A DNA stretch of 25,625 nucleotides, from the IMG/VR virus record IMGVR_UViG_2531839476_000020. One strand, 5' to 3'. A program made the translations under genes and the position numbers. The DNA is from a virus. Its lineage: Duplodnaviria; Heunggongvirae; Uroviricota; Caudoviricetes. Numbering within the stretch: position 1 is the first letter of the stretch; each line of letters begins with the position of its first letter. Positions 10,390 to 25,625 of the stretch are shown here, piece by piece. Under the pieces are notes generated by a model. It saw only the letters and a program-made list of their open reading frames with translations, was not told the DNA's origin and did not search any database.

Positions 10390-10421
10390 CTAGCCAAGAT
10401 AGAGAGGGGAGGAAAATCGCA

Positions 10422-11114: not shown

Positions 11115-11132
11115 GCAAAAATCATTTAACCC

Positions 11133-11158
11133 GCCCACTCTTAAGTGGGCTTTTTTTT
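11133..11158 (+). terminator. intrinsic terminator after the cI-like gene
   Basis: GCCCACT-CTTA-AGTGGGC hairpin followed by TTTTTTTT. Confidence 0.6.
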
Positions 11159-11179
11159 GGGAAAAAATCGATAAACCGA

Positions 11180-11208
11180 TTGACAGGTGAAATCGGTAAA
11201 CCTATTAT
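11180..11208 (+). promoter_or_regulatory. PL-like sigma70 promoter with flanking operator-type inverted repeat
   Basis: TTGACA (11180-11185), 17-nt spacer, TATTAT (11203-11208). ACCGAT ... ATCGGT arms bracket the -35 and share the CCGAT/ATCGG motif with the operator at 10368-10389. Confidence 0.55.
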
Positions 11209-11257
11209 CTTGACATAGGTATCGAACTCACCAAAGCAATTATAGAGGATGAGAAAA

Positions 11258-11668
11258 ATGTCATCGTATATGGGATTACCAACAAATCAGCACGATGCTC
11301 TTGAGAATATTCAGCTCTTAGTAGGGACTGGTGCACTACTGTATAGCAGCAATAACCCTGAGTTAATTGAACTTGCCAGCTCCATCCTGGCTGTAACTCA
11401 AAAATATAGCCTCACCGCGTCACGTTTATGCAAACAAAATTTAGCTATTAATTCCCAGAATCGGATTCGCACCCAACGCGAAACCTGCGGCTTAACAACC
11501 GCCGAACTCGCTAGGCTGCTCGATCTCGATGAAGAAATTATCATCCAGTGGGAGAGCGGAGAGTACGAACCAACCATCAGCATGCTTATCCCTCTGGCTA
11601 ATGTTCTTGGCTGTGATCCAATGTTGTTATTGACTGATGCTTATAAACAAAATCAGGAGGAAGCATAA
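11258..11668 (+). CDS. HTH (XRE-family) domain protein, first gene of the PL-like operon
   Basis: C-terminal TQRETCGLTTAELARLLDLDEEIIIQWESGEYEPTISMLIPLANVLG is an XRE-type HTH; RBS AGAGGA upstream of the second ATG. Confidence 0.65.
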   Translation: MSSYMGLPTNQHDALENIQLLVGTGALLYSSNNPELIELASSILAVTQKYSLTASRLCKQNLAINSQNRIRTQRETCGLTTAELARLLDLDEEIIIQWESGEYEPTISMLIPLANVLGCDPMLLLTDAYKQNQEEA

Positions 11669-11669
11669 G

Positions 11670-11861
11670 ATGAAAATGTTCAAAGGCCTTACCAACGAAC
11701 CGGAGACAACTTTTCATCACATTGCCGTACTGCTTGAAGCGGGGTTAATCATTTCGGCTTCCGGTGATGAAGAATGTGATGAACTTTCGGATGATATCTT
11801 TTTACTGGCACAACAATACGCCAGAAGCGCATGCGATGCATTTAAGGAGCAAAGAACATGA
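11670..11861 (+). CDS. hypothetical acidic small protein (64 aa)
   Basis: RBS AGGAGG before ATG at 11670; tightly packed with neighbours. Confidence 0.5.
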   Translation: MKMFKGLTNEPETTFHHIAVLLEAGLIISASGDEECDELSDDIFLLAQQYARSACDAFKEQRT

Positions 11862-12049
11862 AAACTCCATTAAATATTCTTGAGGAAGTGGCAGCACAAA
11901 TAAAAGAGAATACATCAATGCTTGAATTTATATTTAAGAATTCGCCCGACTCAGGAGAGACAGACGATTATTTATGTTGCCTCATTCGCTCCATGAATAA
12001 AACCTGTGAAATGGCTTACGCGTATATCGACACACTGCGCAACGAATAA
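11858..12049 (+). CDS. hypothetical small protein (63 aa)
   Basis: ATGA start/stop overlap with the previous gene; RBS AAGGAG. Confidence 0.5.
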   Translation: MKTPLNILEEVAAQIKENTSMLEFIFKNSPDSGETDDYLCCLIRSMNKTCEMAYAYIDTLRNE

Positions 12050-12233
12050 AGAAAACTCAATAAACAATCACCCATAAAAACATAACGGTCTCTGGTCGGG
12101 AATTTCCACAACCTGAAAATGGTGGTGATGCATGAAAAACAGAAGTGCTTATAAAACCGCATTATTAATGGCTAATGCAGGATACTGGTCAGTTGCAATA
12201 CTGTTTCTCAGGAAAGCATACGGGAAATAACAA

Positions 12234-12593
12234 ATGACACATGAACCCATTAATACATATCGTCGCCGTATAGCTGTTGCGGCACTCCATCGAATAAAAC
12301 GTAAAACAGGTGGTAATCTGCTTATTGTTGACCTTCCTGATGGGAACATTACGACCATAGAAATAACTGAACAGTTTATAAACCAGTTGCTGTTACGCTT
12401 CGAAGGTATTACCCGTGGTGAATTGGGCCGGGTGGAGGGTGAAACCGAAATCCACACTGCATACCAGAATGCTATCGGGATTAATCAACATACTGAATAC
12501 CTGACTGAAACCGGAAAGTTAATTATAGACAACCTTTTTCAAGAGATTATTGATTACGCGAAAGAAAAATATATCAGCGGAGGAATTAACTGA
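12234..12593 (+). CDS. hypothetical protein (119 aa)
   Basis: ORF coupled (ATGA overlap) to the downstream gene. Confidence 0.5.
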   Translation: MTHEPINTYRRRIAVAALHRIKRKTGGNLLIVDLPDGNITTIEITEQFINQLLLRFEGITRGELGRVEGETEIHTAYQNAIGINQHTEYLTETGKLIIDNLFQEIIDYAKEKYISGGIN

Positions 12594-12808
12594 TGGCTAA
12601 TTTATCCCCTGTATCTGTTGTGCACGAAAAAGTGCAGATCGTTATGACAATTGAAAATGGCCAAGTCACAGGTGTCTGCAAAGTCCGCGATGGCGAGCTG
12701 ATTGCCAGCATGGATACATTCATACGGCTGGCAGAAAGAGCGGGGTATCAGATAACAGCACCTGCTCAGGAGGAAACCGGTGGCATTAACAGCAACACGC
12801 ATTCCTGA
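12593..12808 (+). CDS. hypothetical protein (71 aa)
   Basis: RBS GGAGG; start overlaps the upstream stop. Confidence 0.5.
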   Translation: MANLSPVSVVHEKVQIVMTIENGQVTGVCKVRDGELIASMDTFIRLAERAGYQITAPAQEETGGINSNTHS

Positions 12809-12994
12809 GCGGATCCACCGGCAGGCATTGCAGGTCCTGTTGTTGTACCGATGCCGACGGATATTTCCGCATCGGATACAGCGCACCGGATATCTCAGTC
12901 TGAAGGTTAACCGTCGCTGGCGGCTGTTATCGAAAGACGACGGCCGGAACTGGGAAGTAATGAGTCATGAACGTTATTCGGGAGAAATAAAGAA

Positions 12995-13387
12995 ATGATC
13001 GACAACCGCACCGCCAGCACCATTGACCAGGCATTACAGAAACATGATACACCCGTCGGCCCGTTATTTTTTGTAACACGCCACGGAAGAACAAAAAAAT
13101 GCCTCACCCGAAAAACGGCAATTCGTTACCTGGCATTCTTTATGACCACCCGCGCTTTTGAACGTTCAGGATTCCGACAACGCTATCCTGACAAGCGTTT
13201 TATCTTCAACAGGAATGAGATATGGAAACGTGGAGAATCAACCACAGAGTATACCCGCGCACACCAGCGAACAATCAGACGACTGCGCAGACTCATCGCC
13301 AGGAAACAGTATACAGAAAAATGGTTCAGAAAATATGACACATGGAGCGCCGGATATTACGAACTGATGGCAACAAAACCATTCTGA
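12995..13387 (+). CDS. hypothetical highly basic protein (130 aa)
   Basis: RBS GGGAGA; Arg/Lys-rich, suggesting nucleic-acid binding. Confidence 0.5.
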   Translation: MIDNRTASTIDQALQKHDTPVGPLFFVTRHGRTKKCLTRKTAIRYLAFFMTTRAFERSGFRQRYPDKRFIFNRNEIWKRGESTTEYTRAHQRTIRRLRRLIARKQYTEKWFRKYDTWSAGYYELMATKPF

Positions 13388-13447
13388 CGTAAACGAAATT
13401 AACCATGACGCAATTAAATAAGGCAAGCCGAATACATCAGGAGGACC

Positions 13448-13636
13448 ATGAACATTTATTTCAGAATAGTTATATCACTGGCAATTATCACATGTATTTA
13501 CGGATTAATCGTTCCGGCCCTCATATCAATGAAGGATACGGTAGCAGTGATTTCTGGCTTTGCTCTGGCGTGTCTGACCCCGCCCTGCATTTATGCCATT
13601 TATAAGGGTCTTTCTTTTTCTAAGGATAAAAGATGA
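13448..13636 (+). CDS. small two-helix membrane protein (62 aa), coupled to the SPFH lipoprotein gene
   Basis: RBS AGGAGG; two hydrophobic segments (IVISLAIITCIYGLIVPALI and VISGFALACLTPPCIYAIY); stop overlaps the next start (ATGA). Confidence 0.55.
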   Translation: MNIYFRIVISLAIITCIYGLIVPALISMKDTVAVISGFALACLTPPCIYAIYKGLSFSKDKR

Positions 13637-14460
13637 AAAAATTACTTTTTGCTTTAGCCCTTGTTCTGCCGACCATTGGCCTTGTCGGTTGCGATCGCGT
13701 TGAGCCTGGTAATGTGGGCATCAAAGTAAACAAACTGGGCGACGATAAAGGCGTCGGTGAAGTGGTCGGTGTTGGGCGCTACTGGACGGGATGGAACACT
13801 GAGGTTTACATCTTCCCGACCTTTAAGCAGATGAAGACCTACGATGATCCATTCAGTTTCCAGATGAGTGACGGTACAACCATCGGCTATCACATCGGCG
13901 TGGCCTACAAAGTTGATCCATCCAAAGTTACCACAGTCTTTCAGACCTACCGCAAAGGCGTGGACGACATTACCGACACCGACCTGCGCCAGAAGATAGC
14001 CGACGCACTCAACCGACTGGCCAGCAAAATGACCACCGACAAATTTATCGACGGCGGCAAGTCTGAGCTGCTGGATGCAGCTCTTAAAGACATTCAGGAA
14101 GAAATGACGCCCATCGGTATTCAGGTAATGAGCCTCTCATATGTGGGTAAGCCGGAGTACCCACCTACTGTTATCGACAGCATTAATGCCAAAGTCACGG
14201 CGAACCAGAAAACCCTGCAACGCGAGCAGGAAGTAAAACAGCGCGAAGCGGAAGCCAACATGTTGCGCGCGGAAGCTGCCGGACAGGCAGATGCGATTCG
14301 CACAAAAGCCCAGGCCGAAGCCGATGCTATTCGTTTACGCGGTGAAGCTCTGCGCCAGAACCCCGGTGTTATGGAGCTGGAAGCCATCAACAAGTGGAAC
14401 GGTACACTGCCGCAATACATGACCAGCGGTGCCAACACACCATTTATTCAGGTTAAGTAA
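13633..14460 (+). CDS. SPFH/band-7 (prohibitin-like) domain lipoprotein
   Basis: Lipoprotein signal MKKLLFALALVLPTIGLVGC (lipobox LVGC); SPFH-like core and an Ala/Glu/Arg-rich coiled-coil tail QREQEVKQREAEANMLRAEAAGQADAIRTKAQAEADAIRLRGEALRQ. Confidence 0.75.
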   Translation: MKKLLFALALVLPTIGLVGCDRVEPGNVGIKVNKLGDDKGVGEVVGVGRYWTGWNTEVYIFPTFKQMKTYDDPFSFQMSDGTTIGYHIGVAYKVDPSKVTTVFQTYRKGVDDITDTDLRQKIADALNRLASKMTTDKFIDGGKSELLDAALKDIQEEMTPIGIQVMSLSYVGKPEYPPTVIDSINAKVTANQKTLQREQEVKQREAEANMLRAEAAGQADAIRTKAQAEADAIRLRGEALRQNPGVMELEAINKWNGTLPQYMTSGANTPFIQVK

Positions 14461-14503
14461 TACATATGCCCGGTATTACACGCCGGGCTGTCTGGAGATA
14501 AAA

Positions 14504-15253
14504 ATGAATATTGTAACCATCAACAACAAACAGTTTCCGGTAATCGAATATCGCGGTCAGCGTGTTGTGACATTTGCAATAATTGATGACGTCCACCAGC
14601 GCCCGGAAGGTACCGCCCGTGCTGCGTTTAACCGCAACCGTTCTCACTTTATCGAAGGGGTGGATTTTCTTGAAATGACTGCGGACGTAATACGTACGGA
14701 GTCACTTTCTGATGCCTTTGCCGCGCGAACTGCCAAAGGGATCATTCTTTTCGAGTCTGGTTACCTGATGTTGACGAAGCCTTTTAACGATGCTCTTGCA
14801 TGGCAGGTTCAGCGCGAACTGGTTAACAGCTATTTCCGAACTCACGCGCCGCTGACGGAAATGGAGATGATCGCTGCAATGGCCGCCGATGCCGTTCGCC
14901 AGCAGAAGCGCCTGAGTCATGTTGAAGAGAAGATCGAAACGGTCACCAAAGCTGTGGAGAACATCAAACGCGGCACAATGCGCACCGGATATGTCGGTTA
15001 CCGCCAGGTGGTAGCCAAAAGCGGAATGAGTGACGCCAAGTGTCGGAATCTGGTCAACGCCTACCACATCCCTACCGACACGCACGAATTTATGACTCCG
15101 GACGGTCTGTTGTCTCGCAGGGCTGTCGTCGAGCTTGAGACATTTATGGCGGCGTTCCACCAAATGATGTCAGAGGCTGAACCACGCGGCACACGCTGGT
15201 ATCACCCGAAGATGGGGCTTTTTCAGGTAATCGGATGGGAGGATAAAGCATGA
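14504..15253 (+). CDS. ORF6N/KilA-N domain protein (antirepressor-like)
   Basis: Start at MNIVTINNKQFPVIEYRGQRVVTFAIIDDVH (RBS GGAG); N-terminal domain typical of phage ORF6N/KilA-N DNA-binding modules. Confidence 0.65.
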   Translation: MNIVTINNKQFPVIEYRGQRVVTFAIIDDVHQRPEGTARAAFNRNRSHFIEGVDFLEMTADVIRTESLSDAFAARTAKGIILFESGYLMLTKPFNDALAWQVQRELVNSYFRTHAPLTEMEMIAAMAADAVRQQKRLSHVEEKIETVTKAVENIKRGTMRTGYVGYRQVVAKSGMSDAKCRNLVNAYHIPTDTHEFMTPDGLLSRRAVVELETFMAAFHQMMSEAEPRGTRWYHPKMGLFQVIGWEDKA

Positions 15254-15818
15254 TCATCCAGTCAAAACTTATTCGCGCCGCTCTGGTGTGCGCTGCTAAA
15301 AACGACGTTCGTTATTACCTGAACGGTCTTCACATCACGCCAAAACATATTGAGGCAACCAATGGTTTCGTAGCACTGCGCATGACTCACGGCATCCGGA
15401 CGAAGAAAAACATCATTGTCCAGTTCGAAGGTGGCGTCCCGGCCAAAGCCGAAACGACAGAGCTGATTTTTAGTAAAGAGCCGATCCTGTTCATCGCGAC
15501 CAGTTTCAGCGCCGGCTGTCCATTACCGGCATTAAATTGGTGGACGGTTGTTTTCCGGATTTGGAACGCATCATTCCGAAAAAATTTGACCTCTGTACAC
15601 ACCCGGTGATCCAGGCGGGTTACCTGAGTTATCCAGAGAAGATGTTTGGTCGTGAGCGTAAATTTATTCCCGTCCAGTTACGTTCCTCCGGTGACGGGCA
15701 AGCGGTCAGAATTCAGTTTGATTCCATCATCAACTCAATGTATGGCAATCCTGAATTTGTTGTGATGCCTTGTCGTGATCATGGCGATTTCAATGTGGCT
15801 CAGGAGCATCCGGAATGA
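15250..15818 (+). CDS. DnaN (beta sliding clamp) domain II-III-like protein, apparently split by a 1-nt frameshift near 15505-15512
   Basis: NDVRYYLNGLHI...ATNGFVALRM parallels DnaN QDVRYYLNGMLFE...TDGHRLA. The second frame ITGIKLVDGCFPDLERIIPKK parallels FTSKLVDGRFPDYRRVLPK, and the C-terminal EFVVMPCR parallels AYVVMPMR. Junction is at GCCGGCTGTCC. Confidence 0.5.
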
Positions 15819-15941
15819 AAATCGAATACCAGGACGCCGCAGGAGGTGAATCAATGAGCTGGCCTGATGCAATCGTAACTCTGGGGGTGGTATTCGCAGT
15901 AGCGTTTGTTGTGTTCTCAATTTGTCGATGGGGATAACCAC

Positions 15942-16184
15942 ATGTTCGCTTTGATTCAACGCGGTCAGATATACACGGACAGAGCCGGATACCCCGTGGT
16001 GATTACTCGCATCACTGAGCACTCAGTGTTCTTTCGACGGATGGACGGACGATCCGGGCGGGTACGCATTGGTGAGTTAAACTGCCTGTTCGAACATATT
16101 GACCACCAGGAGTACCGCAAAATTCTCGCGGACACTGAGCAGGAAAAGCACCTGAAAAAATTACGAGCCATAAAAAGGAAGTAA
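15942..16184 (+). CDS. hypothetical protein (about 80 aa)
   Basis: Start moved to MFALIQRGQIYTD; sits in the xis-proximal region. Confidence 0.45.
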   Translation: MFALIQRGQIYTDRAGYPVVITRITEHSVFFRRMDGRSGRVRIGELNCLFEHIDHQEYRKILADTEQEKHLKKLRAIKRK

Positions 16185-16186
16185 AG

Positions 16187-16336
16187 AATGAATAAAGCAT
16201 TTGAACAATGGGTCCACCAGCGTTACGGCAATCGCTATGACCTGACGCGAGATGTTGACGGCTTCTACTGTCGTGAAGTTGTGAAGCGAATGTTTGACGT
16301 GTGGTGCCACTGCCGTGGGCTGAGTGTTATGTGAGG
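16187..16336 (+). CDS. hypothetical small Cys-rich protein (49 aa), below the ORF-track length cutoff
   Basis: ATG at 16187 with RBS AAGGAAG; MNKAFEQWVHQRYGNRYDLTRDVDGFYCREVVKRMFDVWCHCRGLSVM. Confidence 0.3.
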
Positions 16337-16342
16337 TGATGT

Positions 16343-16552
16343 ATGGGGCTGGATTGCGTGCCTATATCAACCTACTGCCGCGACGCGGGAGAAACGGTTG
16401 ATGCCGTTAACAAACGGATACAAAGAGGAATATGGAAAGAAGGGGTTCATGTATTAAAAGTCGACGGAGTTAAAGAACGCTGGGTCGACTTAATAGAGGT
16501 TTCAAAATGGGCAAGAAAGAACAAGGATTATTATCTCTGCCAAGAGGAGTAA
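16343..16552 (+). CDS. excisionase-like protein
   Basis: 69-aa ORF immediately upstream of, and overlapping, the integrase gene, as in xis-int pairs. Confidence 0.55.
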   Translation: MGLDCVPISTYCRDAGETVDAVNKRIQRGIWKEGVHVLKVDGVKERWVDLIEVSKWARKNKDYYLCQEE

Positions 16553-17685
16553 CTATTCGTAAGCATAAAACTGCTTCAACACTAGTTATCACTTTCACAT
16601 ATAAAGGGGTTCTTTGCAGGGAGCCCCTGTCTCGGCTTGAGGCAAATACACGTGGTATTAAATATGCTGAGCGCCTGCTAGGGGAGATACAAAATCAGAT
16701 CGCCAGCGGAACGTTTGAATATGCGAAATATTTCCCCAGTTCCAAAAAACTGGAGTTATTCGGTGTAGTAAAGAAAACCAAAAATATTAAGTCCTATCTT
16801 GATGAATACCTGAAAATTTGCATGAACCGCAATCTGTCGCCGTCAACCATTGGCGGTTACGAAAAATGTCTATCAGCACTATCAGAACTACATAAACTAC
16901 ATGTAACAGAATTGACGCCTGCGGTACTAAAAAATTGGATAGCCAGCCGAAAAACTAAGCTGAAAACAATCAGGAATAACCTGTCATTTCTGCGCAGCGC
17001 CATTGATGAGGCTGTAACTGATGGCCTGTTGACTATTAACCCGGTAACTCTTGTCAGCGCCAGCCGGTATCACGTGGTCGACAGTAAACCGAACGCCGAC
17101 GATTACGAAGTTGATCCGTTTGCGCCTGCGGAAACCAGTGCCATATATCAGCACTGCAAGTATCAGGAATGGCAGAATCTGTTCCGCTTCGCCTTCAATA
17201 CAGGGCTACGCAGCTCTGAGCTATGCGCATTACGTTGGACCGATATCGACTTTATAGGTAATACAGCGCACATACAGGCGGCCAGTGTCGTAGGGGTACT
17301 TAAAGGCACCAAGACAAAAGCCGGTACCCGTAAGGTGGAGCTGAACAGTGAGGCGCTGGCGGCCCTGCAGGCGCAGAAGCAATACACCTTTATGAAAAGT
17401 GAGTTCATATTCAGCGATCCGAAAACGGGAGATCCCTGGACGAACGCCGACGCTATCCGTAAAAAAGCATGGGTGCCGACCCTGAAAAAAGCTGGTGTGC
17501 GCTACCGTAACCCGTACCAGACGCGCCACACATTCGCCACCAGACACATTAGCCAGGGTGTAAACCTTTTCTGGCTTGCCGGGCAGATGGGGCATAAGGG
17601 GCCGGAAATGCTGTTCCGCAATTACGGTAAATACCTGGCTGAATACGACGGGAAAACCGCAATGGAATCTGGAATGAAGAAGTGA
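16507..17685 (+). CDS. tyrosine site-specific recombinase (lambdoid prophage integrase)
   Basis: 392 aa; the C-terminal region carries the conserved residues of the tyrosine recombinase catalytic set (Arg in FNTGLRSSEL, His-x-x-Arg in TRHTFATRH, His in MGHKG, Tyr in LFRNYGKYL); N-terminal arm-type DNA-binding region. Confidence 0.9.
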   Translation: MGKKEQGLLSLPRGVTIRKHKTASTLVITFTYKGVLCREPLSRLEANTRGIKYAERLLGEIQNQIASGTFEYAKYFPSSKKLELFGVVKKTKNIKSYLDEYLKICMNRNLSPSTIGGYEKCLSALSELHKLHVTELTPAVLKNWIASRKTKLKTIRNNLSFLRSAIDEAVTDGLLTINPVTLVSASRYHVVDSKPNADDYEVDPFAPAETSAIYQHCKYQEWQNLFRFAFNTGLRSSELCALRWTDIDFIGNTAHIQAASVVGVLKGTKTKAGTRKVELNSEALAALQAQKQYTFMKSEFIFSDPKTGDPWTNADAIRKKAWVPTLKKAGVRYRNPYQTRHTFATRHISQGVNLFWLAGQMGHKGPEMLFRNYGKYLAEYDGKTAMESGMKK

Positions 17686-17697
17686 TTTGAAGAAAAA

Positions 17698-17721
17698 ACC
17701 CGGCAAATGCCGGGTCTTTTT
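17698..17721. terminator. bidirectional intrinsic terminator between convergent int and cargo genes
   Basis: CCCGGC-AAAT-GCCGGG hairpin flanked by AAAAAA upstream and TCTTTTT downstream. Confidence 0.65.
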
Positions 17722-17726
17722 GATGG

Positions 17727-18494
17727 TTATTCTGTCGCGCCACCTATCGAAACATAATCATGAAATTGATCGTCAATGAGTCGGTCCTTACAGATAACAT
17801 GTACAATGTGACGACAACAGTTTTCATCATCATACGCACGACCCCAGCGAACAATCTCATCTACAGACAGATCATTCGCACTCCATGGCAAAGTACCTGA
17901 AACGCCACGCGCACCTGGACCAAGTATGTCCATAAATTTCTTCGTGCGTGAATTGTAGATCCGTACCTCGGCAATTCGAATGATGCTACTAGCCCAAAGA
18001 GCACCACCGGCAATACTTTGAATGTTATCGCAGATGAGAAACTCATGCTTTCGCGCAAGCATTTTATAGATCTCACGCGCCAAACCTGCTGATTGGAAAT
18101 CCTGTGCGATAACAGCGCTTTTCACTTGCTTTCCGGTCATCATCTGACCGTTCTCTTCGATAAAATTAAAGTCGTTGAACTGTATACGACCTATTCTTAT
18201 CGTTTTGTTATCGTCTACCATATCAAGACCCAAGAGGGTATTGACCAGATCCTGCATTGGAACCTTCGAATCAAGAAGGTCACTGCCATAGTCTAAAAAA
18301 AAGTCGTCGGTGGAACATCCCAGTTGATACACATCCAAGTAGTACTGAAACTCACCAGAACTGACAATGTACTCATCAGCCCTCAGTAAGCCAGCCTCGG
18401 CAGTGAAAAAATAGAATGACTCAATAAGACGTTTTTCGCCAAATGGCGTAATGTTCAAGTCCTTGTTATATGAAGGTATTAACGCAGGAGCCAT
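17727..18494 (-). CDS. hypothetical protein (255 aa), second gene of an int-to-att cargo operon
   Basis: Long ORF convergent with int, 11 nt downstream of the 113-aa gene; no recognisable catalytic motif. Confidence 0.6.
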   Translation of the reverse strand: MAPALIPSYNKDLNITPFGEKRLIESFYFFTAEAGLLRADEYIVSSGEFQYYLDVYQLGCSTDDFFLDYGSDLLDSKVPMQDLVNTLLGLDMVDDNKTIRIGRIQFNDFNFIEENGQMMTGKQVKSAVIAQDFQSAGLAREIYKMLARKHEFLICDNIQSIAGGALWASSIIRIAEVRIYNSRTKKFMDILGPGARGVSGTLPWSANDLSVDEIVRWGRAYDDENCCRHIVHVICKDRLIDDQFHDYVSIGGATE

Positions 18495-18505
18495 TCAGCA
18501 ACCTT

Positions 18506-18847
18506 TTAATGGTAGTTAATTTCCCTGTAGTTCTTCTGCATGTATAGAGCAATTGCCGCTTCAATTTTCTTCAGCAGATTACTGCTTACATACTGAGGAT
18601 ACTGATCTGCTGGCTTCACAACATAGCGCAATTTTTCTTTGTTCATGGCGATCTCAGCGAACGGGATCACGTCACCGTCACGAACCTCATTGTTCAATGT
18701 CACAATAAACAGCTGACGTGCCGGGGAGACACGATCACTCAGTCTTCTCACGAAGAACTCGTTTGCTGTGTTTGAGTCAACAAAAGAACTGACGAGTTGA
18801 GTCCGACGCTCAATCGTCTGTATCGATCTTCTCGCTACTGTTCTCAT
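18506..18847 (-). CDS. hypothetical protein (113 aa), first gene of an int-to-att cargo operon
   Basis: RBS GAGGAG 6 nt upstream of the ATG; preceded by a structured leader. Confidence 0.55.
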   Translation of the reverse strand: MRTVARRSIQTIERRTQLVSSFVDSNTANEFFVRRLSDRVSPARQLFIVTLNNEVRDGDVIPFAEIAMNKEKLRYVVKPADQYPQYVSSNLLKKIEAAIALYMQKNYREINYH

Positions 18848-18886
18848 GCTAGTCTCCTCAACACTTCACTGGCTGTGCAGTGAAGG

Positions 18887-18924
18887 TACAAAAAGCCACT
18901 GATGATAACAGCGTCATCAGTGGC
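18887..18924 (-). terminator. terminator-like hairpin inside the leader of the 113/255-aa operon (possible attenuator)
   Basis: 11-bp stem GCCACTGATGA/TCATCAGTGGC followed on the minus strand by TTTTTG; a second 8-bp hairpin CTTCACTG/CAGTGAAG (18864-18885) lies between it and the RBS. Confidence 0.45.
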
Positions 18925-19176
18925 CCTTGATGGTGATAACCGCAGTTACCTAAATAGTATGATATTACCTTACGGGTAATTCTTCAACGATTGCTCTGAA
19001 TTGAATAGTCTTGAAGTGCTATGAACAGCACAAAACAGCGCTAATCACCGCCCCAGTGGCGCCTAAACACTTCAAAATGTTGGACAGAATCAGGACGTTA
19101 GAGGTACTACAATATGCACGTAAAATGCACGTGAGGTATTTTAAATTAGAAAAATCATTAATATTCAATTGGTTAA

Positions 19177-19217
19177 GAATTTTTCGGATACGGGTTCAAC
19201 TCCCGCCAGCTCCACCA
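19177..19217 (+). other. ssrA: 3' fragment of ssrA (tmRNA) ending in CCA; att core shared by the prophage right end and the P4-type island left end
   Basis: GAATTTTTCGGATACGGGTTCAACTCCCGCCAGCTCCACCA matches my recollection of the E. coli tmRNA 3' end (T-arm, acceptor stem, CCA). No matching 5' acceptor strand or tmRNA body lies upstream. Confidence 0.7.
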
Positions 19218-19382
19218 CTTTTTAGTTGTTTGAAGTTCAATGAAGTCTACTAAGCCCACACAGCACAAGCTCTGCGGGCTTTTTTACGTCTATTGTCGTC
19301 CAGTGAGAATTGCTGAGAACTACGAGTTATGGCACCCTGAATGGGACCCACTAAGAAGGGTCCAAAAACCGAGGGTCCCAAA

Positions 19383-20612
19383 ATGGCAAAAATCGCTAAG
19401 AAGCTCACTGACACTGAAATCAAAAGCACCAAGCCAGCCGATAAAGAAATCAACTTGTTTGACGGTGATGGTCTGATTCTACGAATCGCTCCTTTGGCGA
19501 AAGGAGGCAAGAAAAATTGGTATTTCAGGTATGCAGTACCAGTGAGCAAGAAAAGAACCAAAATGAGCCTTGGGACATATCCTCACCTTACCCTTGCAAG
19601 AGCCAGAGCCTTACGTGATGAATATCTCTCCTTTCTGGCAAATGGTGTTGATCCCCAAATCCATAACAACGATAAGGCGAAGGCATTAAAGAGTGCTACT
19701 GAGCACACTCTCCAAGCCGTAGCGCGGAAATGGTTAGATGAGAAGGTAAAGACATCAGGTATCTCACAAGACCATGCAGCAGACATCTGGCGCAGCTTAG
19801 AGAGAAATGTCTTTCCCGGTCTGGGTAATGTCCCTATCAATGAGATCCGACCTAAGCTCTTAAAACAACACCTTGATCCTATTGAGCAACGAGGCGTATT
19901 GGAAACTCTACGCCGTATCATTTCACGTCTGAATGAAATCTTCCGGTGGGCAGCTACTGAAGAACTTATTGAGTTCAACCCGGCTGACAACCTTGGTCAA
20001 AGATTCAGTAAACCAAAAAAGCAAAATATGCCTGCCCTTCCCCCAAGCGAATTGCCAAGGTTTATGGAATCTTTGACGAATGCGTCAATCCGGTTGGAAA
20101 CACGTATGCTAATTGAATGGCAATTGTTGACATGGGTTCGTCCGGGTGAAGCCGTTCGCGCAAGGTGGTCTGATATTGATACAACCAACAGCATTTGGAA
20201 CATTCCTGCTGATTTCATGAAAATGAAAAAGCTTCACAAAGTTCCTTTGAGTAAAGAAGCTTTGCGCATCCTTGAATTAATGAAATCAATAAGTGGGCAT
20301 AGAGAATGGGTTTTCCCCAGCATAAAAGCGCCTCTTAATCATATGCATGAACAAACAGCCAACGCAGCTATCATCCGAATGGGGTTCGGAGGCGAGCTTG
20401 TAGCTCACGGTATGCGTTCTATTGCACGAACAGCGGCAGAGGAGTCTGGTAAATTCAGAGCTGAAGTTCTTGAGGCAGCGCTTGCCCACTCGAAAAAAGA
20501 TGAAATTATCGCAGCATACAATCGTGCAGAATATCTGATAGAGCGACAGAGTTTGATGCAATGGTGGAGTGATTACGTTCAAGCTCAAAGATCAAATGCT
20601 CTGGTAGCCTAA
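19383..20612 (+). CDS. P4-type tyrosine integrase (IntA-like)
   Basis: Start at MAKIAKKLTDTEIKSTKPADKEINLFDGDGLILRI, the typical P4-family integrase N-terminus; C-terminal AHGMRSIARTAAEESG and catalytic Tyr region; lies directly 3' of the ssrA fragment. Confidence 0.9.
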   Translation: MAKIAKKLTDTEIKSTKPADKEINLFDGDGLILRIAPLAKGGKKNWYFRYAVPVSKKRTKMSLGTYPHLTLARARALRDEYLSFLANGVDPQIHNNDKAKALKSATEHTLQAVARKWLDEKVKTSGISQDHAADIWRSLERNVFPGLGNVPINEIRPKLLKQHLDPIEQRGVLETLRRIISRLNEIFRWAATEELIEFNPADNLGQRFSKPKKQNMPALPPSELPRFMESLTNASIRLETRMLIEWQLLTWVRPGEAVRARWSDIDTTNSIWNIPADFMKMKKLHKVPLSKEALRILELMKSISGHREWVFPSIKAPLNHMHEQTANAAIIRMGFGGELVAHGMRSIARTAAEESGKFRAEVLEAALAHSKKDEIIAAYNRAEYLIERQSLMQWWSDYVQAQRSNALVA

Positions 20613-21138
20613 GTATCAGAATAGCTAATATAATCCTGAAGGTAAAGAAAATGGAAACCCTATTCAAAGTTTTTGAAAAATTTAGTTCCAGACCACTTTT
20701 TTTTATTTTTTTCGGACTCTCACTTTGTGAATTTTTTCAGAAACAATCTGTTCTGATGAATCCATCAGCAGATAACATCGCGAAATTATTCGCAGCCATG
20801 ATATTAGTTGTTTTTTTACTTGGGGATTTGAATGGCTAATCTTCAAGTTCAATGTAAACCTTGAACCTCATGATCAAGGCGATATTGGACCAACAATTGG
20901 AACGGCTACTTTAGCTGTATACTTAGTTTATGCCTTTCACTTTCTCAGTGAAAATCCTGAAGCATTAAATTTAAAGTTATTAACTAACTCTGGCTTTATA
21001 TACAGCACAACTCTATTATTATTCTCATTAGAATGCATGAAGCTTAGAAGACTTAAACAAAAATAAACAACATCATTGTGATGATAAATATAAAATAGGC
21101 ATGGCGAAAAAAAAATCACCACGCCTAAAATATAATAA

Positions 21139-22887
21139 TTATGGTAGCATCATTGATACATAATCCACACCAATCCTTGAGCTATACTGAGACGCTATAG
21201 CCTGATATCTTTCTGCATAACCAGTTCTCAGTTGAGATTTAAGTTTGAGTCGGACAGGAACATTTTGCACGTTGCCATCCATATTACTTAAAAACACGGC
21301 AGAAATAATATTTTTTTCTTCGCCATCAACTGTTGTTCCATGATTCAACACCACCATATAATCAACAACAGGAAGCGTTTTATCCCCTTCGAAAATAGAG
21401 AGATATTTTCTTTGATTTTTATGCATTACATATATATATTTCGAATGTTCAGCAAATGGCAATGCTTTACTCTGACTGGCGTTAAAAAGCTCCAGAACTT
21501 TAATGAGCCTGTGCGGACTTAATCTTACATGGTGAGGGTCGTTACCCTGAGTAGGAACCAAATCACATGCCGCAGATACACATAAATACCATTTGTTCGA
21601 CTCTGTATCAAAGAAAATAGTGCCAGTAGAAATATGACCATCTTCAAAATTCTTTGAAGACAAATTCATATTTAAAGCATGATACATTTCGTGATAAGTA
21701 TCATTATTTGATGGCAGATCCATTTTTGAAGAGCAATATTGGAGCAATGCAGCAACTCCGCTGTTAGCGTATTCATTTGAATAGCTATCAAAAACACTTT
21801 TGATAAATTCATCCAGCGTATTATTATTTTTAAGTCTTTGATAAAGCTCTTCTGATAAATTACCAAATACAAAGTCAATATTTCTACATCTAATATCAGG
21901 CGAGTCTGATTTTAATATCTCATTTAACCACGCAGCTTGACCGTAATGATCGTTAGCCAAATGATTTACAAAAGATAAAGCCTCAGCTTCGATTGCATTC
22001 TGAATTTCAGATTTTATTAACTGATAATAAGATGGTTTCCATTCAATGAGAGAATCATTGAGAGTTTGCCAAATCCTATCTCCATCGTTTTCATGATCAT
22101 CTTGAACCTTATGAAATAGGGAGACAAAGATATTACCACATTGAATCCATTTTACTCCGCTTTCATCACCCCGAATGACATTGCCAGATGTGTTGCTAGA
22201 AATAATTGCATTTCTAGACACAGCATATTCTGCAATCATTTTTGCAATGAAGTTTTTATCCTTTTGTTCCTCCAACACAGCATCATCATGTATTAATCTT
22301 TTAATTCTTCTACAAGGCTTACTGTCTTTAATATAGGCTATTGTTTCATCTCTTGTGAGAGCTTTATTACCATTATCATTTAAGTTCGGTAATACAACGT
22401 CTTCCCAATAACTTTGGACATCTTCATTATCGTAGTCAATGATCAAGCTGTTGATATCCAGAGCACCTTTGAGAGTCGATGATATCTGCATCCAAACCGT
22501 TTCTAAATTCTCTCTAGTATATATTACAATCATATTTAAATGATCGGAGTCTTTCAAATCTTGTAATAGTTTAAGTGTTTTATCAGGTGCATTATTATCA
22601 AGATGATAATCTACAATAATAAGATCTGATTTTCTAATCCGATCCACATCGAAATTAACAGAACCATTGTCAACATCACAAATCATATTTTTAGATTGAA
22701 AAAAGCTCTCAAGAGTAGCGGCTCGTTTAGATGAGTCAATTTTGTTGTAGTCTAAATCAACTTCGTTATTCAACGCCCTGATTGATTCAGAATACGTCAG
22801 AAAATCGTCATCAATCATGACAACGGAACGAATTGCATTTTCGCAGAAAGTTTTCTGGACAAGAGAATTATAATTTGCCACTGTCAT
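21139..22887 (-). CDS. receiver (REC) domain protein with an uncharacterised ~450-aa C-terminal domain; candidate effector of a two-component-like module
   Basis: N-terminus has REC hallmarks: acidic pair VVMIDDD, putative phospho-acceptor Asp in DLIIVDYHLD, conserved Thr in NMIVIYT. The rest has no motif I can name. Start assigned to the second ATG (22887), preceded by TGGAG and abutting the kinase stop (TAATATG). Confidence 0.75.
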   Translation of the reverse strand: MTVANYNSLVQKTFCENAIRSVVMIDDDFLTYSESIRALNNEVDLDYNKIDSSKRAATLESFFQSKNMICDVDNGSVNFDVDRIRKSDLIIVDYHLDNNAPDKTLKLLQDLKDSDHLNMIVIYTRENLETVWMQISSTLKGALDINSLIIDYDNEDVQSYWEDVVLPNLNDNGNKALTRDETIAYIKDSKPCRRIKRLIHDDAVLEEQKDKNFIAKMIAEYAVSRNAIISSNTSGNVIRGDESGVKWIQCGNIFVSLFHKVQDDHENDGDRIWQTLNDSLIEWKPSYYQLIKSEIQNAIEAEALSFVNHLANDHYGQAAWLNEILKSDSPDIRCRNIDFVFGNLSEELYQRLKNNNTLDEFIKSVFDSYSNEYANSGVAALLQYCSSKMDLPSNNDTYHEMYHALNMNLSSKNFEDGHISTGTIFFDTESNKWYLCVSAACDLVPTQGNDPHHVRLSPHRLIKVLELFNASQSKALPFAEHSKYIYVMHKNQRKYLSIFEGDKTLPVVDYMVVLNHGTTVDGEEKNIISAVFLSNMDGNVQNVPVRLKLKSQLRTGYAERYQAIASQYSSRIGVDYVSMMLP

Positions 22888-22888
22888 A

Positions 22889-24607
22889 TTAGAACTCCAC
22901 TCCATTGAACTGGATCACAAAATTAGCGCCATCTTTTATTAAATAGTTATCGCCTTCATCAGGTTCTGAATACCATATTTTATGATGTGCAACAGCAAGG
23001 TTTTCTCGACATAGATACAGACCTACCCCATGTCCATTTGCTCTTTTGCTATAAAATAGTTCAAATAGTCGCGGGATATCATCGGTATCAATTGCCGGAC
23101 CAGAATTTGCTATGATAACCAAAGAATTCACAAAACCAATCTTTATGAGCCTATTATTTGACAGACTGACCCAATACATTGCATTGTTGATAATATTAGT
23201 AAAAACAGGATAGATCCTTGATGGTATATCTGTTATTGCGATTTGCTTAAACTCTTCACTAAATTCAATAGTTATTCGTTGCCGTTCGAAACGCTCCCCA
23301 AAGAACTTCAGGACATAATCCATGATATTTTTTCCAGTTATTCTCTGCCTGGATTGATAACCTGATATTTTCAAAGGTGATAAGAAACGTATTTGTTGAG
23401 TAAGCGATCTGTGAGCATTTAACGCCAATGAAAAACCAGGGTGTTCTTTTACAGAAGTAGGAAGAGAGTTTAGTCCTCTGGTTACCATAGAATCCATTTC
23501 TTCAAGTTCATGAGATATTATCTCAACACTAATACCTAACTGTGCAAGCGCGTTTAAACTTTTAGCTTTTTCTTCAAAATATGAGCGTTCTTCTTCAGAT
23601 AATGAGAATGCTGAATCTAAGTTTATACCTTCAAATAATCTATCGAGACCTTTTATTATTGATTGATATTTGAAAGTTAGGGTATCAACTGACTCAACAT
23701 ATAAACTATCGAGCAAATTAAACACATTTTCAATTTGTGAATCATTATCTATTGAATCAACAACTGATATAGTTTTAGCATAATAATCACTTCGATCAAC
23801 CTTTATTTCATCGGCCCATTTTTTTAAAAGAGAATGTATCTTCTCCTCTATCGTGTTATTAAACTTAGTTAGTTTAGAATTAATAATACCTTGATTTTTT
23901 TCAAGGTGATTTTTCGCTGACAATGAAGGCTCAAGTTTATTTAATTCAGAATCAAGTTTATTAATTGCTAACTTCATTTGTAGAATATACGCAGAGAACT
24001 CATTAAATTTATCTCTGTAGTCTCTATATTTCTCTTCATACATTCCAAGTTTTGGAGGTTTGATAGGCGTTTTAATTTCACTGCGCAACGCATCTAAGTT
24101 TGTAAGATCACTGTCTATAATTTTAAGATAGTTTAAATCTAACGAACCATCAGTTTTATCAAGCTTAGTTTTCAGCCTTTTAACAGCCTCCAAGGAAGCA
24201 TCAAGAACTGGTGTCTGATTCTTCAAAGCTTCTGAAAAACTTTTTTGTGTTGATTTTCGAGCTTGTTGTTGAGCAGATTTTCTTAACTCTTTTTCACGCT
24301 TAACTTGTTCTAAAAGCTCTTTACGGTCATCAGAACGTGAACCAAAAAATCTATCAGCAAGTTCAGTTAACAAATTAGATATAATAGTTTTCAGTTCTCT
24401 TGCAGCCTGGTTTCTTATGAATCCCTCTCTCCCCGACTTATCTTTCAGCTCTTTATTACTGGATTGAGTAATTCCAATATAACCAAAAATCCTTCTATTA
24501 GACCAATAATATCGCCCTGCATTCCATGAACGTCTTTCTTCTATCTGGAAGAAATCATTATCTACTCGACCATAAGGTAATACTCTCAAGCTATCCCTAA
24601 AAATCAT
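22889..24607 (-). CDS. cytoplasmic histidine-kinase-like protein (HisKA H-box + HATPase_c), probably 5'-truncated by IS3
   Basis: H-box ISVEIISHELEEMDS; N-box IYPVFTNIINNAMYW; G1 IIANSGPAIDTDDIPRLFELFYSK; G2 GHGVGLYLCRENL. No transmembrane segment and a long coiled-coil middle. The frame stays open for 41 codons upstream of the ATG at 24607, up to the IS3 terminus at 24729. Confidence 0.75.
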   Translation of the reverse strand: MIFRDSLRVLPYGRVDNDFFQIEERRSWNAGRYYWSNRRIFGYIGITQSSNKELKDKSGREGFIRNQAARELKTIISNLLTELADRFFGSRSDDRKELLEQVKREKELRKSAQQQARKSTQKSFSEALKNQTPVLDASLEAVKRLKTKLDKTDGSLDLNYLKIIDSDLTNLDALRSEIKTPIKPPKLGMYEEKYRDYRDKFNEFSAYILQMKLAINKLDSELNKLEPSLSAKNHLEKNQGIINSKLTKFNNTIEEKIHSLLKKWADEIKVDRSDYYAKTISVVDSIDNDSQIENVFNLLDSLYVESVDTLTFKYQSIIKGLDRLFEGINLDSAFSLSEEERSYFEEKAKSLNALAQLGISVEIISHELEEMDSMVTRGLNSLPTSVKEHPGFSLALNAHRSLTQQIRFLSPLKISGYQSRQRITGKNIMDYVLKFFGERFERQRITIEFSEEFKQIAITDIPSRIYPVFTNIINNAMYWVSLSNNRLIKIGFVNSLVIIANSGPAIDTDDIPRLFELFYSKRANGHGVGLYLCRENLAVAHHKIWYSEPDEGDNYLIKDGANFVIQFNGVEF

Positions 24608-24728
24608 TAGTCCTGCATACTTTTTGGCCTTAAGATCAAAGTGGGAATGTTCACGTTCAGTATGTGATGTATTTTGTGAAAGGAATTCAAACGTTCCTAT
24701 CTGAAGCTCAAATGGGCCGACCCCTGCG

Positions 24729-25625
24729 TGATCCTACCCACGTAATATGGACACAGGCCTAAGCGAGGTTCTTGTTTTCAAATTGTTCCGGACTGAGGCC
24801 GCCACACCAACTGTGCCGCCGCCACCGATTGTAATCACATTCGATATAATTAAACACCGTTGCCCGCATTATTTCCCGGCTGATAAAGTGTTCTCCATGG
24901 ATACATTCCACTTTCAGCGAATGAAAGAAGCTTTCCACGCAGGCATTATCGTAGCAGCAACCTTTTGCGCTCATACTTCCACGCAGATTATGCCGCTTCA
25001 GTTGCGCCTGATAATCTGCTGAACAGTACTGGCCTCCACGGTCCGTGTGAACGATAACGTTCCGGGGCCTCTTACGCCGCCACAGCGCCATCTGCAGGGC
25101 ATCGCAGGCCAGTTGCGCCGTCATGCGTGGCGACATTGACCAGCCAATAACGGCACGTGACCACAGGTCAATGACCACTGCCAGATACAGCCAGCCTTCA
25201 TCTGTACGTAAGTACGTGATGTCTCCTGCCCACTTCTGGTTCGGGCCACTGGCGTAAAAATCCTGCTCCAACAGATTTTCTGACACAGGCAGGCCGTGTG
25301 CGCGGTAGCTGACCGGGCTGAACTTCCGGGAGGCCTTTGCCCTCAGTCCCTGACGGCGCAGGCTTGCCGCCACGGTTTTTACGTTAAAGGGGTAACCCTG
25401 AGCACGCAGTTCATCCGTCAGGCGTGGGGCACCGTAACGCTGTTTTGACCGGGTAAAAGCCGCGAGGACAACGCTGTCGCAGTGTTGGCGGAACTGCTGA
25501 CGCGTGCTTATCCTTGTCCGCCGCTGACACCACGTATACCAGCCGCTGCGGGCCACCCGGAGCACGCGGCACATTGCTTTGATGCTGAACTCAGCCTGAT
25601 GTTTTTCAATAAAGACATACTTCAT
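24729..25625 (-). mobile_element. IS3 insertion sequence, orfB-side portion (element continues beyond the window end)
   Basis: Terminal inverted repeat TGATCCTACCCACGTAATATGGACACAGGCCTAAGCGAGG begins at 24729 and is followed by the complete orfB. Confidence 0.9.
24759..25625 (-). CDS. insF: IS3 transposase OrfB (DDE integrase domain)
   Basis: 288 aa matching my recollection of IS3 OrfB; start codon is at the last three bases of the window, so orfA and the frameshift site lie outside. Confidence 0.9.

What the first reader, a model, noticed from the sequence alone, without database searches (positions are those of the whole stretch)
21139..24728. Cytoplasmic histidine kinase plus receiver-effector pair in an ssrA island: candidate undescribed (Detocs-like?) two-component defence module
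Two co-oriented, translationally abutting genes (kinase stop and receiver start in TAATATG) sit in a P4-integrase island. The first has a bona fide kinase core but no membrane segments, so it would sense an intracellular cue. The second has a receiver domain fused to ~450 aa with no motif I recognise; it is not the purine nucleoside phosphorylase fold reported for most Detocs effectors, and no stand-alone receiver 'buffer' gene lies nearby. The architecture therefore resembles but does not match the described three-gene Detocs layout, and could be a new variant or an unrelated regulator.
Basis: partly seen in the sequence, partly recalled or inferred. Interest (0 to 1): 0.85.

Follow-up and report, generated by a model that had tools for sequence, protein, structure and literature searches.

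The report
Truncated methylase-linked kinase–receiver defence remnant
The two genes are real, but they are the broken tail end of an already described three-gene module (DNA methylase, MORC-like histidine kinase, receiver-effector) that in this E. coli has lost its methylase and the kinase's sensor half, so this copy is most likely a dead relic.

Summary

It is not undescribed. The two proteins match Pfam HEF_HK (PF19191) and Response_reg_2 (PF19192), defined as a linked, restriction-modification-associated pair in 2021.

It is also incomplete. Homologues 99% identical are 988 aa with an N-terminal MORC-like GHKL ATPase and are preceded by a C5 cytosine methylase. Here the kinase is cut at codon ~376, at the IS3 junction (24729/24730), and the methylase is gone. 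None of 5,426 complete E. coli genomes holds the missing part. A GenBank record already labels this locus "remnant integrative element".

Across 36 evaluable diverse genomes the receiver gene always follows the full kinase, and 32 of 35 have the methylase adjacent.

It is not Detocs: no TPR sensor, no buffer receiver, and no significant PADLOC hit. The closest tested relative is Ambrosia, which shares only the kinase.

The receiver's 300-aa C-terminal domain has no known homologue; the only lead is a weak CcdB/MazF-like fold match. The inferred intact mechanism is methylation-gated phosphorelay activating that effector.

The parts
19182..19217 (+). 36-nt copy of the 3' end of ssrA (attachment-site repeat). 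It marks the left border of the island remnant.
   Evidence: Window 19182-25625 aligns at 99.9% with L001 18583-25027, and the ssrA tmRNA is annotated at L001 18256-18618. ARAGORN finds no complete tmRNA gene in the window.
19383..20612 (+). P4-type tyrosine integrase of the island (409 aa as annotated; the ORF can start at 19341).
   Evidence: ORF 19341..20612. Annotated as an integrase domain-containing protein. The homologue in intact islands carries Arm-DNA-bind_3, Phage_int_M and Phage_integrase.
20651..21067 (+). Small hypothetical gene of the island (138 aa in other strains), frameshifted in this window.
   Evidence: Annotated CDS WP_000448925.1 in L001. The window translation breaks after 62 aa. 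No Pfam or PADLOC match.
21096..21127 (-). Terminator-like hairpin (12 pairs followed by a T run) 12 nt after the receiver gene's stop: the operon end.
21139..22887 (-). Receiver-effector gene, 582 aa, intact. Residues 1-283 form the Response_reg_2 receiver (phospho-acceptor Asp93 at 22609-22611). Residues 284-582 form a family-specific helical plus beta domain, the presumed effector.
   Evidence: Pfam PF19192 at E 3.6e-31. AlphaFold models with pLDDT 84 and 82.7. Conserved residues listed. 99% identical to the protein of intact islands, with 2 non-synonymous and 12 synonymous codon differences.
22889..24729 (-). 5'-truncated kinase gene, corresponding to residues ~376-988 of a 988-aa protein. 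The annotated 572-aa ORF starts at an internal Met (24607). DHp/HEF_HK lies at 23366-23542 (His366 codon 23510-23512) and HATPase_c at 22949-23224. The N-terminal GHKL/MORC ATPase is missing.
   Evidence: The homology with the intact gene ends at window 24729.
24730..25625 (-). IS3 copy that abuts the truncation point; it runs off the end of the window.
   Evidence: The IS3 terminal repeat ...GGGTAGGATCA is directly followed by the kinase sequence CGCAGGGG. Annotated as an IS3 family transposase. ORF 24759..25625.

Best explanation
Shown:
- The two genes are the distal two-thirds of a three-gene operon carried by an ssrA-integrating mobilisable island. The operon order is C5 cytosine DNA methylase, then a 988-aa soluble kinase, then a 582-aa receiver protein.
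- The kinase has an N-terminal MORC-like GHKL ATPase, a coiled coil, a HEF_HK DHp domain and HATPase_c.
- The receiver protein has a Response_reg_2 domain plus a 300-aa family-specific domain.
- In this E. coli lineage one deletion, whose end point now abuts IS3, removed the methylase, the first ~375 codons of the kinase and the rest of the island.
- What remains is a kinase core without its sensor and native promoter region, plus an intact receiver-effector gene.

Inferred for the intact system:
- The methylase marks host DNA.
- The MORC-like ATPase half of the kinase loads on DNA and reports unmethylated (foreign) DNA by ATP-driven dimerisation.
- This switches on autophosphorylation at His782.
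- The phosphoryl group passes to Asp93 of the receiver and frees the C-terminal domain. That domain acts as the effector: a toxin or nuclease of an unrecognised type, possibly with a CcdB/MazF-like barrel.
- The trio would thus be a restriction-modification-like or abortive-infection defence (or addiction) module, in which kinase plus receiver stand in for the restriction enzyme.

Inferred for this window: the remnant is inert. A deletion that took the methylase and the sensor together is the kind of loss a cell would survive.
For: Truncation:
- The reading frame is open up to the IS3 junction and collinear with residues ~376-988 of P0147.
- Homologues 99% identical are 988 aa with HATPase_c_3.
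- None of 5,426 complete E. coli genomes holds the methylase or kinase 5' DNA. 558 match only from the same junction onward.
- GenBank AJ304858.2 labels the locus 'remnant integrative element'.

Three-gene unit:
- The intact islands run ssrA/smpB, integrase, 138-aa gene, receiver, kinase, methylase, relaxase.
- The same trio occurs in Enterobacter, in Tn7-like cargo in Acinetobacter, and in a metagenome copy only 25% identical.
- In 43 loci from species-representative genomes, the full kinase lies directly upstream in 36 of 36 evaluable loci. A C5 methylase is adjacent in 32 of 35.
- The only other recurrent neighbour is Vsr (10 of 36). No dedicated nuclease gene recurs.

Active chemistry is conserved across ~37 diverse members:
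- GHKL motifs E32/N36/D39, DxGxG and GxxGxG.
- H782-E783, the N box and the G2 box.
- Receiver residues D26, D27, D93, T124 and K260.

Effector candidate:
- The C-terminal domain is conserved in 648 clusters, almost always in this same architecture.
- Its conserved polar residues are N406, T421, C441, D442, Q552, R571 and D575.
- No DNA-binding domain is detected.

Precedents:
- Ambrosia (methylase + homologous GHKL kinase + receiver + HNH) protects against phage and needs the receiver Asp and the GHKL Asn.
- Detocs shows phosphorelay-gated effectors in defence.
Against: - No experiment bears on this trio. I found none in the searchable literature.
- The Ambrosia authors favour transcriptional control rather than direct effector activation, and in their system methylation did not protect phage.
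- Both remnant ORFs are still intact in more than 550 genomes, and the receiver gene shows few non-synonymous changes (2 against 12 synonymous). Some residual function therefore cannot be excluded.
- One strain has the same truncation point without IS3, so IS3 may not have caused the deletion.
- Sensing of unmethylated DNA by the MORC-like domain is pure inference.
Confidence: 0.7

Rival explanations
1. The truncated pair still works as a stand-alone two-component defence module. This is essentially the first reader's view. A sensor-less kinase core translated from the internal Met would phosphorylate the receiver-effector in response to an intracellular cue.
For: - Both ORFs are uninterrupted and translationally coupled.
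- They are kept at >99% identity in hundreds of E. coli genomes.
- The receiver gene shows a purifying-selection-like pattern against the intact homologue, with 2 non-synonymous and 12 synonymous differences.
- Bellieny-Rabelo et al. list 34 of 222 kinases without the N-terminal HATPase_c_3.
Against: - The native start, upstream region, methylase and the whole GHKL sensor are gone.
- The N-terminal ATPase is present in all 36 evaluable relatives and its catalytic motifs are at least 90% conserved.
- No promoter-like site above chance lies near the junction.
- The kinase fragment shows relatively more non-synonymous change (5 against 4 synonymous).
- High identity among E. coli copies can be explained by recent common descent from one truncation event.
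Confidence: 0.08
2. In the intact system the kinase and receiver are regulators only. The phosphorylated receiver would switch on transcription of the methylase or of an unlinked restriction or defence gene. This is what was proposed for this family in 2021 and for Ambrosia in 2025. The C-terminal domain would be an unrecognised DNA-binding or protein-binding output.
For: - The authors of PMC8011034 speculate on a signalling cascade controlling R-M systems.
- In Ambrosia, reporter genes replacing abrA or abrD are induced on infection.
- The first half of the receiver's C-terminal region is a helical bundle of unknown role.
Against: - Ambrosia's small receiver AbrC is unrelated to this protein (hhalign probability 0.3%).
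- Most loci contain no nuclease gene that could be the regulated target.
- A 300-aa domain with invariant Asp, Arg, Asn and Cys residues looks more like an enzyme or toxin.
Confidence: 0.17
3. An ordinary housekeeping two-component regulator that merely happens to lie in an island.
For: NCBIfam gives weak partial similarity of the catalytic domain to AtoS, PhoR and similar kinases.
Against: - Those hits are far below the family cut-offs (36 bits against 646).
- The family is sporadic, and at least some copies lie on mobile elements. Examples are ssrA islands with a relaxase and Tn7-like cargo.
- It is tied to a methylase and Vsr.
- The receiver has no DNA-binding output.
Confidence: 0.02

Closest known systems
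HEF_HK / Response_reg_2 'two-component-system-like' pair associated with R-M systems and paraMORC ATPases (Bellieny-Rabelo, Pretorius & Moleleki 2021, PMC8011034; Pfam PF19191 and PF19192)
   Same: - Both Pfam domains match above the gathering cut-off.
- The kinase is soluble with a C-terminal HATPase_c.
- The kinase and receiver genes are adjacent.
- Intact relatives have an upstream C5 methylase and often Vsr.
- E. coli members were in that study's data set.
   Different: The window copy lacks the N-terminal HATPase_c_3 and the methylase because of a deletion. That paper gave no experimental function and did not analyse the receiver's C-terminal 300 aa.
Ambrosia (AbrR-AbrA-AbrB-AbrC-AbrD), a validated P. 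aeruginosa anti-phage system (bioRxiv 10.1101/2025.09.30.679545)
   Same: - It combines a methylase with a GHKL/MORC-type histidine kinase and a receiver.
- The N-terminal half of AbrB is homologous to the intact kinase (32% over 120 aa, E 6e-11; 33% over 76 aa, E 4e-6).
- Defence needs the GHKL Asn and the receiver Asp.
   Different: - Ambrosia has an N6 rather than a C5 methylase, plus an XRE regulator and a separate HNH nuclease.
- Its receiver AbrC is a 209-aa protein unrelated to the 582-aa receiver here.
- HNH_2 genes are among the nearest neighbours in only 3 of 36 loci.
- The part of the kinase homologous to AbrB is mostly deleted in this window.
Detocs (DtcA-DtcB-DtcC; Rousset et al., bioRxiv 10.1101/2023.01.24.525353)
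   Same: The logic matches: a cytoplasmic kinase passes phosphate to a receiver fused to a non-DNA-binding effector, encoded on accessory DNA.
   Different: - There is no TPR sensor, no stand-alone buffer receiver and no PNP or other recognised effector.
- The receiver belongs to a different Pfam family.
- No Detocs model matched in PADLOC v2; I did not check that this version contains Detocs models.
- Detocs has no methylase.
Type II restriction-modification systems with a C5 methylase and Vsr
   Same: In intact loci a Type II C5 methylase (PADLOC MTase_II, E 7e-80) is the first gene, and Vsr is frequent.
   Different: No recognisable restriction endonuclease is present; a kinase and a receiver protein occupy its place. 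In this window the methylase itself is absent.
CcdB / MazF / Kid toxin fold
   Different: Identity is 7-10%. Foldseek and profile searches find no link. No antitoxin gene is present. This is a structural lead only.

Membership tests
HEF_HK / Response_reg_2 pair (PMC8011034) | Receiver protein with a Response_reg_2 (PF19192) domain and the conserved Asp, Thr and Lys residues | tested here: met
   E 3.6e-31, 109 bits against a cut-off of 27. D26, D27, D93, T124 and K260 are conserved.
HEF_HK / Response_reg_2 pair (PMC8011034) | Kinase with a HEF_HK (PF19191) DHp domain, a His-Glu H-box and a C-terminal HATPase_c; soluble | tested here: met
   HEF_HK 26.1 bits against a cut-off of 24.1; HATPase_c E 1.8e-11. 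SHELEE motif and no hydrophobic segment.
HEF_HK / Response_reg_2 pair (PMC8011034) | N-terminal HATPase_c_3 (paraMORC) domain, the predominant 'group 1' architecture | tested here: not met
   Absent from the window copy because the gene is cut at codon ~376. Present in 99%-identical 988-aa homologues.
HEF_HK / Response_reg_2 pair (PMC8011034) | Kinase and receiver genes adjacent, with a DNA methylase nearby | tested here: inconclusive
   Adjacency is met. The methylase is absent from the window and from all E. coli copies of this lineage. It is adjacent in 32 of 35 relatives.
Detocs | DtcA: sensor kinase with N-terminal TPR repeats | tested here: not met
   No TPR in the fragment or in the intact protein; the N-terminus is a GHKL ATPase. 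Definition taken.
Detocs | DtcB: stand-alone receiver 'buffer' gene in the operon | tested here: not met
   None in the window or in intact loci.
Detocs | DtcC: receiver fused to a PNP or other recognised killing effector; match to the Detocs profiles | tested here: not met
   The receiver is fused to an unknown domain, with no PNP domain and no significant PADLOC match.
Ambrosia | AbrB-type GHKL/HATPase kinase | tested here: inconclusive
   The intact homologue P0147 is distantly homologous to the N-terminal half of AbrB (E 6e-11 and 4e-6). Only the last of these segments survives in the window. The C-terminal half of AbrB was not available.
Ambrosia | AbrC small receiver, AbrD HNH nuclease, AbrA N6 methylase and AbrR XRE regulator | tested here: not met
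   - AbrC is unrelated (hhalign probability 0.3%).
- No HNH or XRE gene lies in the window or in the source island.
- The methylase in relatives is C5, not N6.
Type II restriction-modification | Cognate methylase plus a recognisable restriction endonuclease | tested here: not met
   No methylase in the window. In intact loci there is a methylase but no endonuclease domain.
CcdB/MazF toxin superfamily | Fold-level and sequence-level match of the effector domain | tested here: inconclusive

The most novel reading that the evidence does not exclude
The intact three-gene parent of this remnant would be a self-contained, methylation-gated immune or addiction module. It consists of a C5 methylase, a MORC-like histidine kinase and a Response_reg_2 protein. 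A MORC-type DNA clamp would be wired directly to a histidine kinase, so that the DNA-methylation state is read out as a phosphorylation signal. That signal would unleash an effector domain of a so far unrecognised type (about 650 clusters at 50% identity, no solved relative, possibly a CcdB/MazF-like barrel). This would be a new way of coupling epigenetic self/non-self discrimination to an output, with no classical restriction enzyme. The window itself would contribute only a natural 'sensor plus methylase deleted' allele.
Probability: 0.4. Interest if true: 0.65.

Novelty: already known. Interest (0 to 1): 0.3.

Why it matters
For this window it matters little. The locus is a fixed relic, useful mainly as a marker of a past ssrA island and as a warning. 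Annotation pipelines call the 572-aa fragment an intact 'ATP-binding protein', and counts of kinases 'without the N-terminal domain' may include such truncations.

The parent system is worth an experiment. It is found in genomes assigned to Proteobacteria, Acidobacteriota, Gemmatimonadetes and Myxococcales. It pairs a bacterial MORC-like ATPase with a histidine kinase, and it carries an effector domain that no structure or family explains. Showing how it works would bear on how MORC-type ATPases read DNA state, and on how two-component signalling has been recruited for defence.

Tried and rejected
- MADS (methylation-associated defence system) was considered from memory and dropped. The search of that paper found no kinase, receiver or GHKL component in the system.
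- The V. cholerae GHKL-Shedu (paraMORC3) has a different architecture, a GHKL ATPase with a DUF4263 nuclease.
- The BREX-related survey and DefensePredictor mention kinases and receivers only in passing, with nothing matching this trio.
- PADLOC v2 gave only non-significant hits for the two window proteins (PD-T4-6 at E 0.026, C3a59 at E 0.0026) and none for the intact kinase.
- Foldseek against PDB returned only receiver and flavodoxin folds for the full receiver model, and nothing for the C-terminal model.
- A profile of the C-terminal domain against PDB sequences found only spurious coiled-coil hits.
- The AlphaFold database library was not available.
- A promoter scan around the IS3 junction found nothing above chance.
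- Searches of the plasmid collection found only two distant relatives. The two 'phage' hits are chromosomal flanks included in prophage records.
- The Creuzburg et al. paper on CP-1639 is not in the library, so only the GenBank annotation is cited.


Full report
**1. What is in the window**

On the minus strand there are two abutting ORFs, 22889..24607 (572 aa) and 21139..22905. A 12-pair hairpin with a T run follows the second stop at 21127..21096.

The first protein carries Pfam HEF_HK (PF19191, residues 356-414) and HATPase_c (462-553). The second carries Response_reg_2 (PF19192, E 3.6e-31) and nothing else. NCBIfam gives only far-sub-threshold kinase similarities, and PADLOC v2 nothing significant. 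Neither protein has a membrane-like segment, and the H-box is SHELEE.

**2. Where it sits**

The window is E. coli chromosome. The region 20600-24760 occurs in 719 of 5,426 complete genomes, mostly at >=99% identity. In strain FDAARGOS_1059 the order is smpB, ssrA, integrase, hypothetical, receiver, 'ATP-binding protein', IS3, a 5'-truncated amylase-like pseudogene, then glaH.

The window matches that locus only from 19182 onward, which corresponds to the last 36 nt of ssrA. ARAGORN finds no tmRNA gene in the window. Window 1-19181 is a different, prophage-like element lying in tandem.

**3. The kinase gene is a fragment**

The closest full-length homologues, 99% identical, come from Klebsiella, Serratia and Salmonella. 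They are 988 aa and have an N-terminal HATPase_c_3 GHKL domain.

In the window the frame upstream of the annotated Met stays open to the IS3 end. It reads ...AGVGPFELQIGTFEFLSQ..., collinear with residue ~376 onward of the 988-aa protein. DNA homology with an intact island stops at window 24729, and the IS3 terminal repeat starts at 24730.

When the methylase-plus-kinase-5' DNA of an intact island is used as query, no complete E. coli genome holds it. 558 genomes match only the last 124 nt, that is, from this same junction. This points to a single ancestral truncation.

GenBank AJ304858.2 (cryptic prophage CP-1639 and its integration site) annotates the same stretch as a 'remnant integrative element' containing a 'histidin kinase-like protein'. 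That strain has the identical truncation point but no IS3, only a 15-nt filler. IS3 is therefore at the break in this window, but it need not have caused it.

**4. The real unit has three genes**

In the intact islands the order is ssrA/smpB, integrase, 138-aa gene, receiver (582 aa), kinase (988 aa), C5 DNA methylase (402 aa, overlapping the kinase start by 20 nt). Mobilisation genes (relaxase) and further recombinases follow.

The same trio is found in three other settings:
- in Enterobacter;
- as cargo of a Tn7-like element in Acinetobacter junii, where the methylase is convergent and next to an HTH gene;
- in a metagenomic copy only 25% identical.

A scan of one genome per species returned 43 loci assigned to Gamma- and Alphaproteobacteria, Comamonadaceae, Desulfotalea, Myxococcales, Acidobacteriota and Gemmatimonadetes. 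I made profile HMMs from four trios and searched the ORFs of these loci:
- The full kinase lies directly upstream of the receiver gene in 36 of 36 loci with enough sequence. One of these kinases is shortened and one is split.
- A C5 methylase is adjacent in 32 of 35.

Clustering of the flanking ORFs, followed by Pfam and PADLOC scans of the two nearest neighbours on each side, found only one other recurrent partner, Vsr (10 loci). HNH_2 occurs in 3 loci, with scattered defence and transposon genes. No dedicated nuclease gene recurs.

**5. Is the chemistry preserved?**

- Across 38 kinases the GHKL motifs (E32, N36, D39; D61xGxG; G104-R110) are at least 90% conserved. So are the kinase core residues (H782-E783; N887/N890/N891; G941xGxG).
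- Across 37 receivers D26, D27, D88, D93, T124 and K260 are conserved.
- The window's receiver has all of these. The window's kinase fragment keeps the core but none of the N-terminal ATPase motifs.
- A 2026 preprint notes that PF19191 lacks the Thr/Asn associated with phosphatase activity. This would fit a one-way switch, but that is inference.

**6. The receiver's C-terminal domain**

AlphaFold models (pLDDT 84 for the whole protein, 82.7 for residues 284-582) show three parts:
- a receiver fold with a large helical insertion (to ~283);
- a helical bundle (~287-410);
- a beta-rich domain ending in a helix (~411-567).

A profile of residues 284-582 finds 648 clusters among 1.84 billion representative proteins. 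Nearly all are 560-680 aa with the domain in the same position, so it is dedicated to this family. Its conserved polar residues are N406, T421, C441, D442, Q552, R571 and D575.

**7. What is already known**

Bellieny-Rabelo et al. 2021 (PMC8011034) defined both Pfam families from this gene pair. They reported:
- 91.6% linkage in 644 regions;
- soluble kinases;
- a predominant HATPase_c_3 + HEF_HK + HATPase_c architecture;
- frequent upstream C5 methylases and Vsr.

They proposed a two-component-like system tied to R-M systems and descended from paraMORCs. E. coli members were in their set. They offered no experiment and no analysis of the receiver's C-terminal domain.

Ambrosia (bioRxiv 2025) is a validated five-gene P. 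aeruginosa system: an XRE regulator, an N6 methylase, a GHKL kinase, a receiver and an HNH nuclease. From its Table S1 sequences:
- the N-terminal half of AbrB is distantly homologous to the intact kinase here;
- AbrC is a 209-aa receiver unrelated to this one.

Detocs requires a TPR-kinase, a buffer receiver and a receiver-effector. None of those defining parts is met here.

**8. Most likely mechanism**

The composition of the unit, the truncation in this window, the conservation of both ATPase modules and the receiver, and the absence of any other effector candidate are all shown. The following is inferred:
- The methylase marks self DNA.
- The MORC-like half of the kinase senses unmethylated DNA and dimerises.
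- His782 is phosphorylated, and the phosphate moves to Asp93.
- The C-terminal domain is released as the effector.

The remnant in this window most likely does nothing. It lacks the sensor, the methylase and its upstream region. The simultaneous loss of methylase and sensor is the kind of deletion that an addiction-type module would allow a cell to survive.

Codon differences from the intact homologue give weak support. The kinase fragment has 5 non-synonymous and 4 synonymous changes, against 2 and 12 in the receiver gene. This hints at relaxed constraint on the kinase fragment, but the numbers are too small to carry weight.

**9. Verdict**

It is wrong on novelty and on the unit, and this copy is a relic.

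Interest for this window is low. The intact parent system remains an attractive, untested candidate with an unexplained effector domain.

Noticed in passing
window 1-19181: A second, prophage-like element lies in tandem with the island remnant, ending at the 36-nt ssrA repeat. The ssrA gene itself is not in the window. Its genes:
- an IS66-family transposase fragment (752-1729);
- a DUF1737/SASA esterase/DUF6645 protein (2741-4594);
- a toprim primase-like gene (6703-7485);
- a DEAD/ResIII helicase (7672-9330);
- a CI-like S24 repressor (10422-11114);
- an SPFH protein (13633-14460);
- an ORF6N protein (14429-15253);
- an integrase (16507-17685).

Only one E. coli genome covers at least 80% of it.
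   Followed up: partly
window 17727-18847 (minus strand): Two ORFs (255 aa and 113 aa) lie between the prophage integrase and the ssrA repeat. The 255-aa ORF has no Pfam match; the 113-aa ORF was not scanned. This position, next to an attachment site, is typical of accessory or 'moron' cargo.
   Followed up: no
window 20651-21067: The island's 138-aa hypothetical gene (hydrophobic N-terminus, no family match) is frameshifted in this window relative to strain FDAARGOS_1059. Translation stops after 62 aa.
   Followed up: partly
window 24729/24730; L057 2728-2742: E. coli 1639/77 (GenBank AJ304858.2) has the same kinase truncation point joined to the chromosomal amylase-like gene. It has a 15-nt filler (ATCCTTAGAGATGCG) in place of the 1,258-bp IS3. 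The order of events (deletion first then IS3, or IS3-mediated deletion then loss) is unresolved.
   Followed up: partly
L014 (DYWT01000267.1, labelled MAG Sporosarcina psychrophila): A 7.5-kb contig of a Firmicutes metagenome-assembled genome encodes a receiver protein 100% identical to the E. coli one, with the kinase gene running off the contig end. This is almost certainly an E. coli contig mis-binned into the MAG.
   Followed up: no
L043 (Methylobacter tundripaludum), L055 (Magnetospirillum sulfuroxidans), L034: Other copies of the trio also show decay. The kinase is split into 156-aa and 859-aa ORFs about 1.1 kb apart in L043. The methylase is split into two ORFs in L055. In L034 the kinase lacks its first ~134 profile positions and no methylase is present.
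   Followed up: no
window 23620-23800 (kinase fragment residues 270-329): All five amino-acid differences between the E. coli kinase fragment and the intact 988-aa homologue cluster in a 60-residue stretch of the coiled-coil region.
   Followed up: no
L011 / L012 (Acinetobacter junii): Here the trio is carried directly after tnsC/tniQ(tnsD)/tnsE genes, as cargo of a Tn7-like transposon. A small HTH (XRE-type) gene lies next to the convergent methylase, reminiscent of Ambrosia's AbrR or of R-M control proteins.
   Followed up: no
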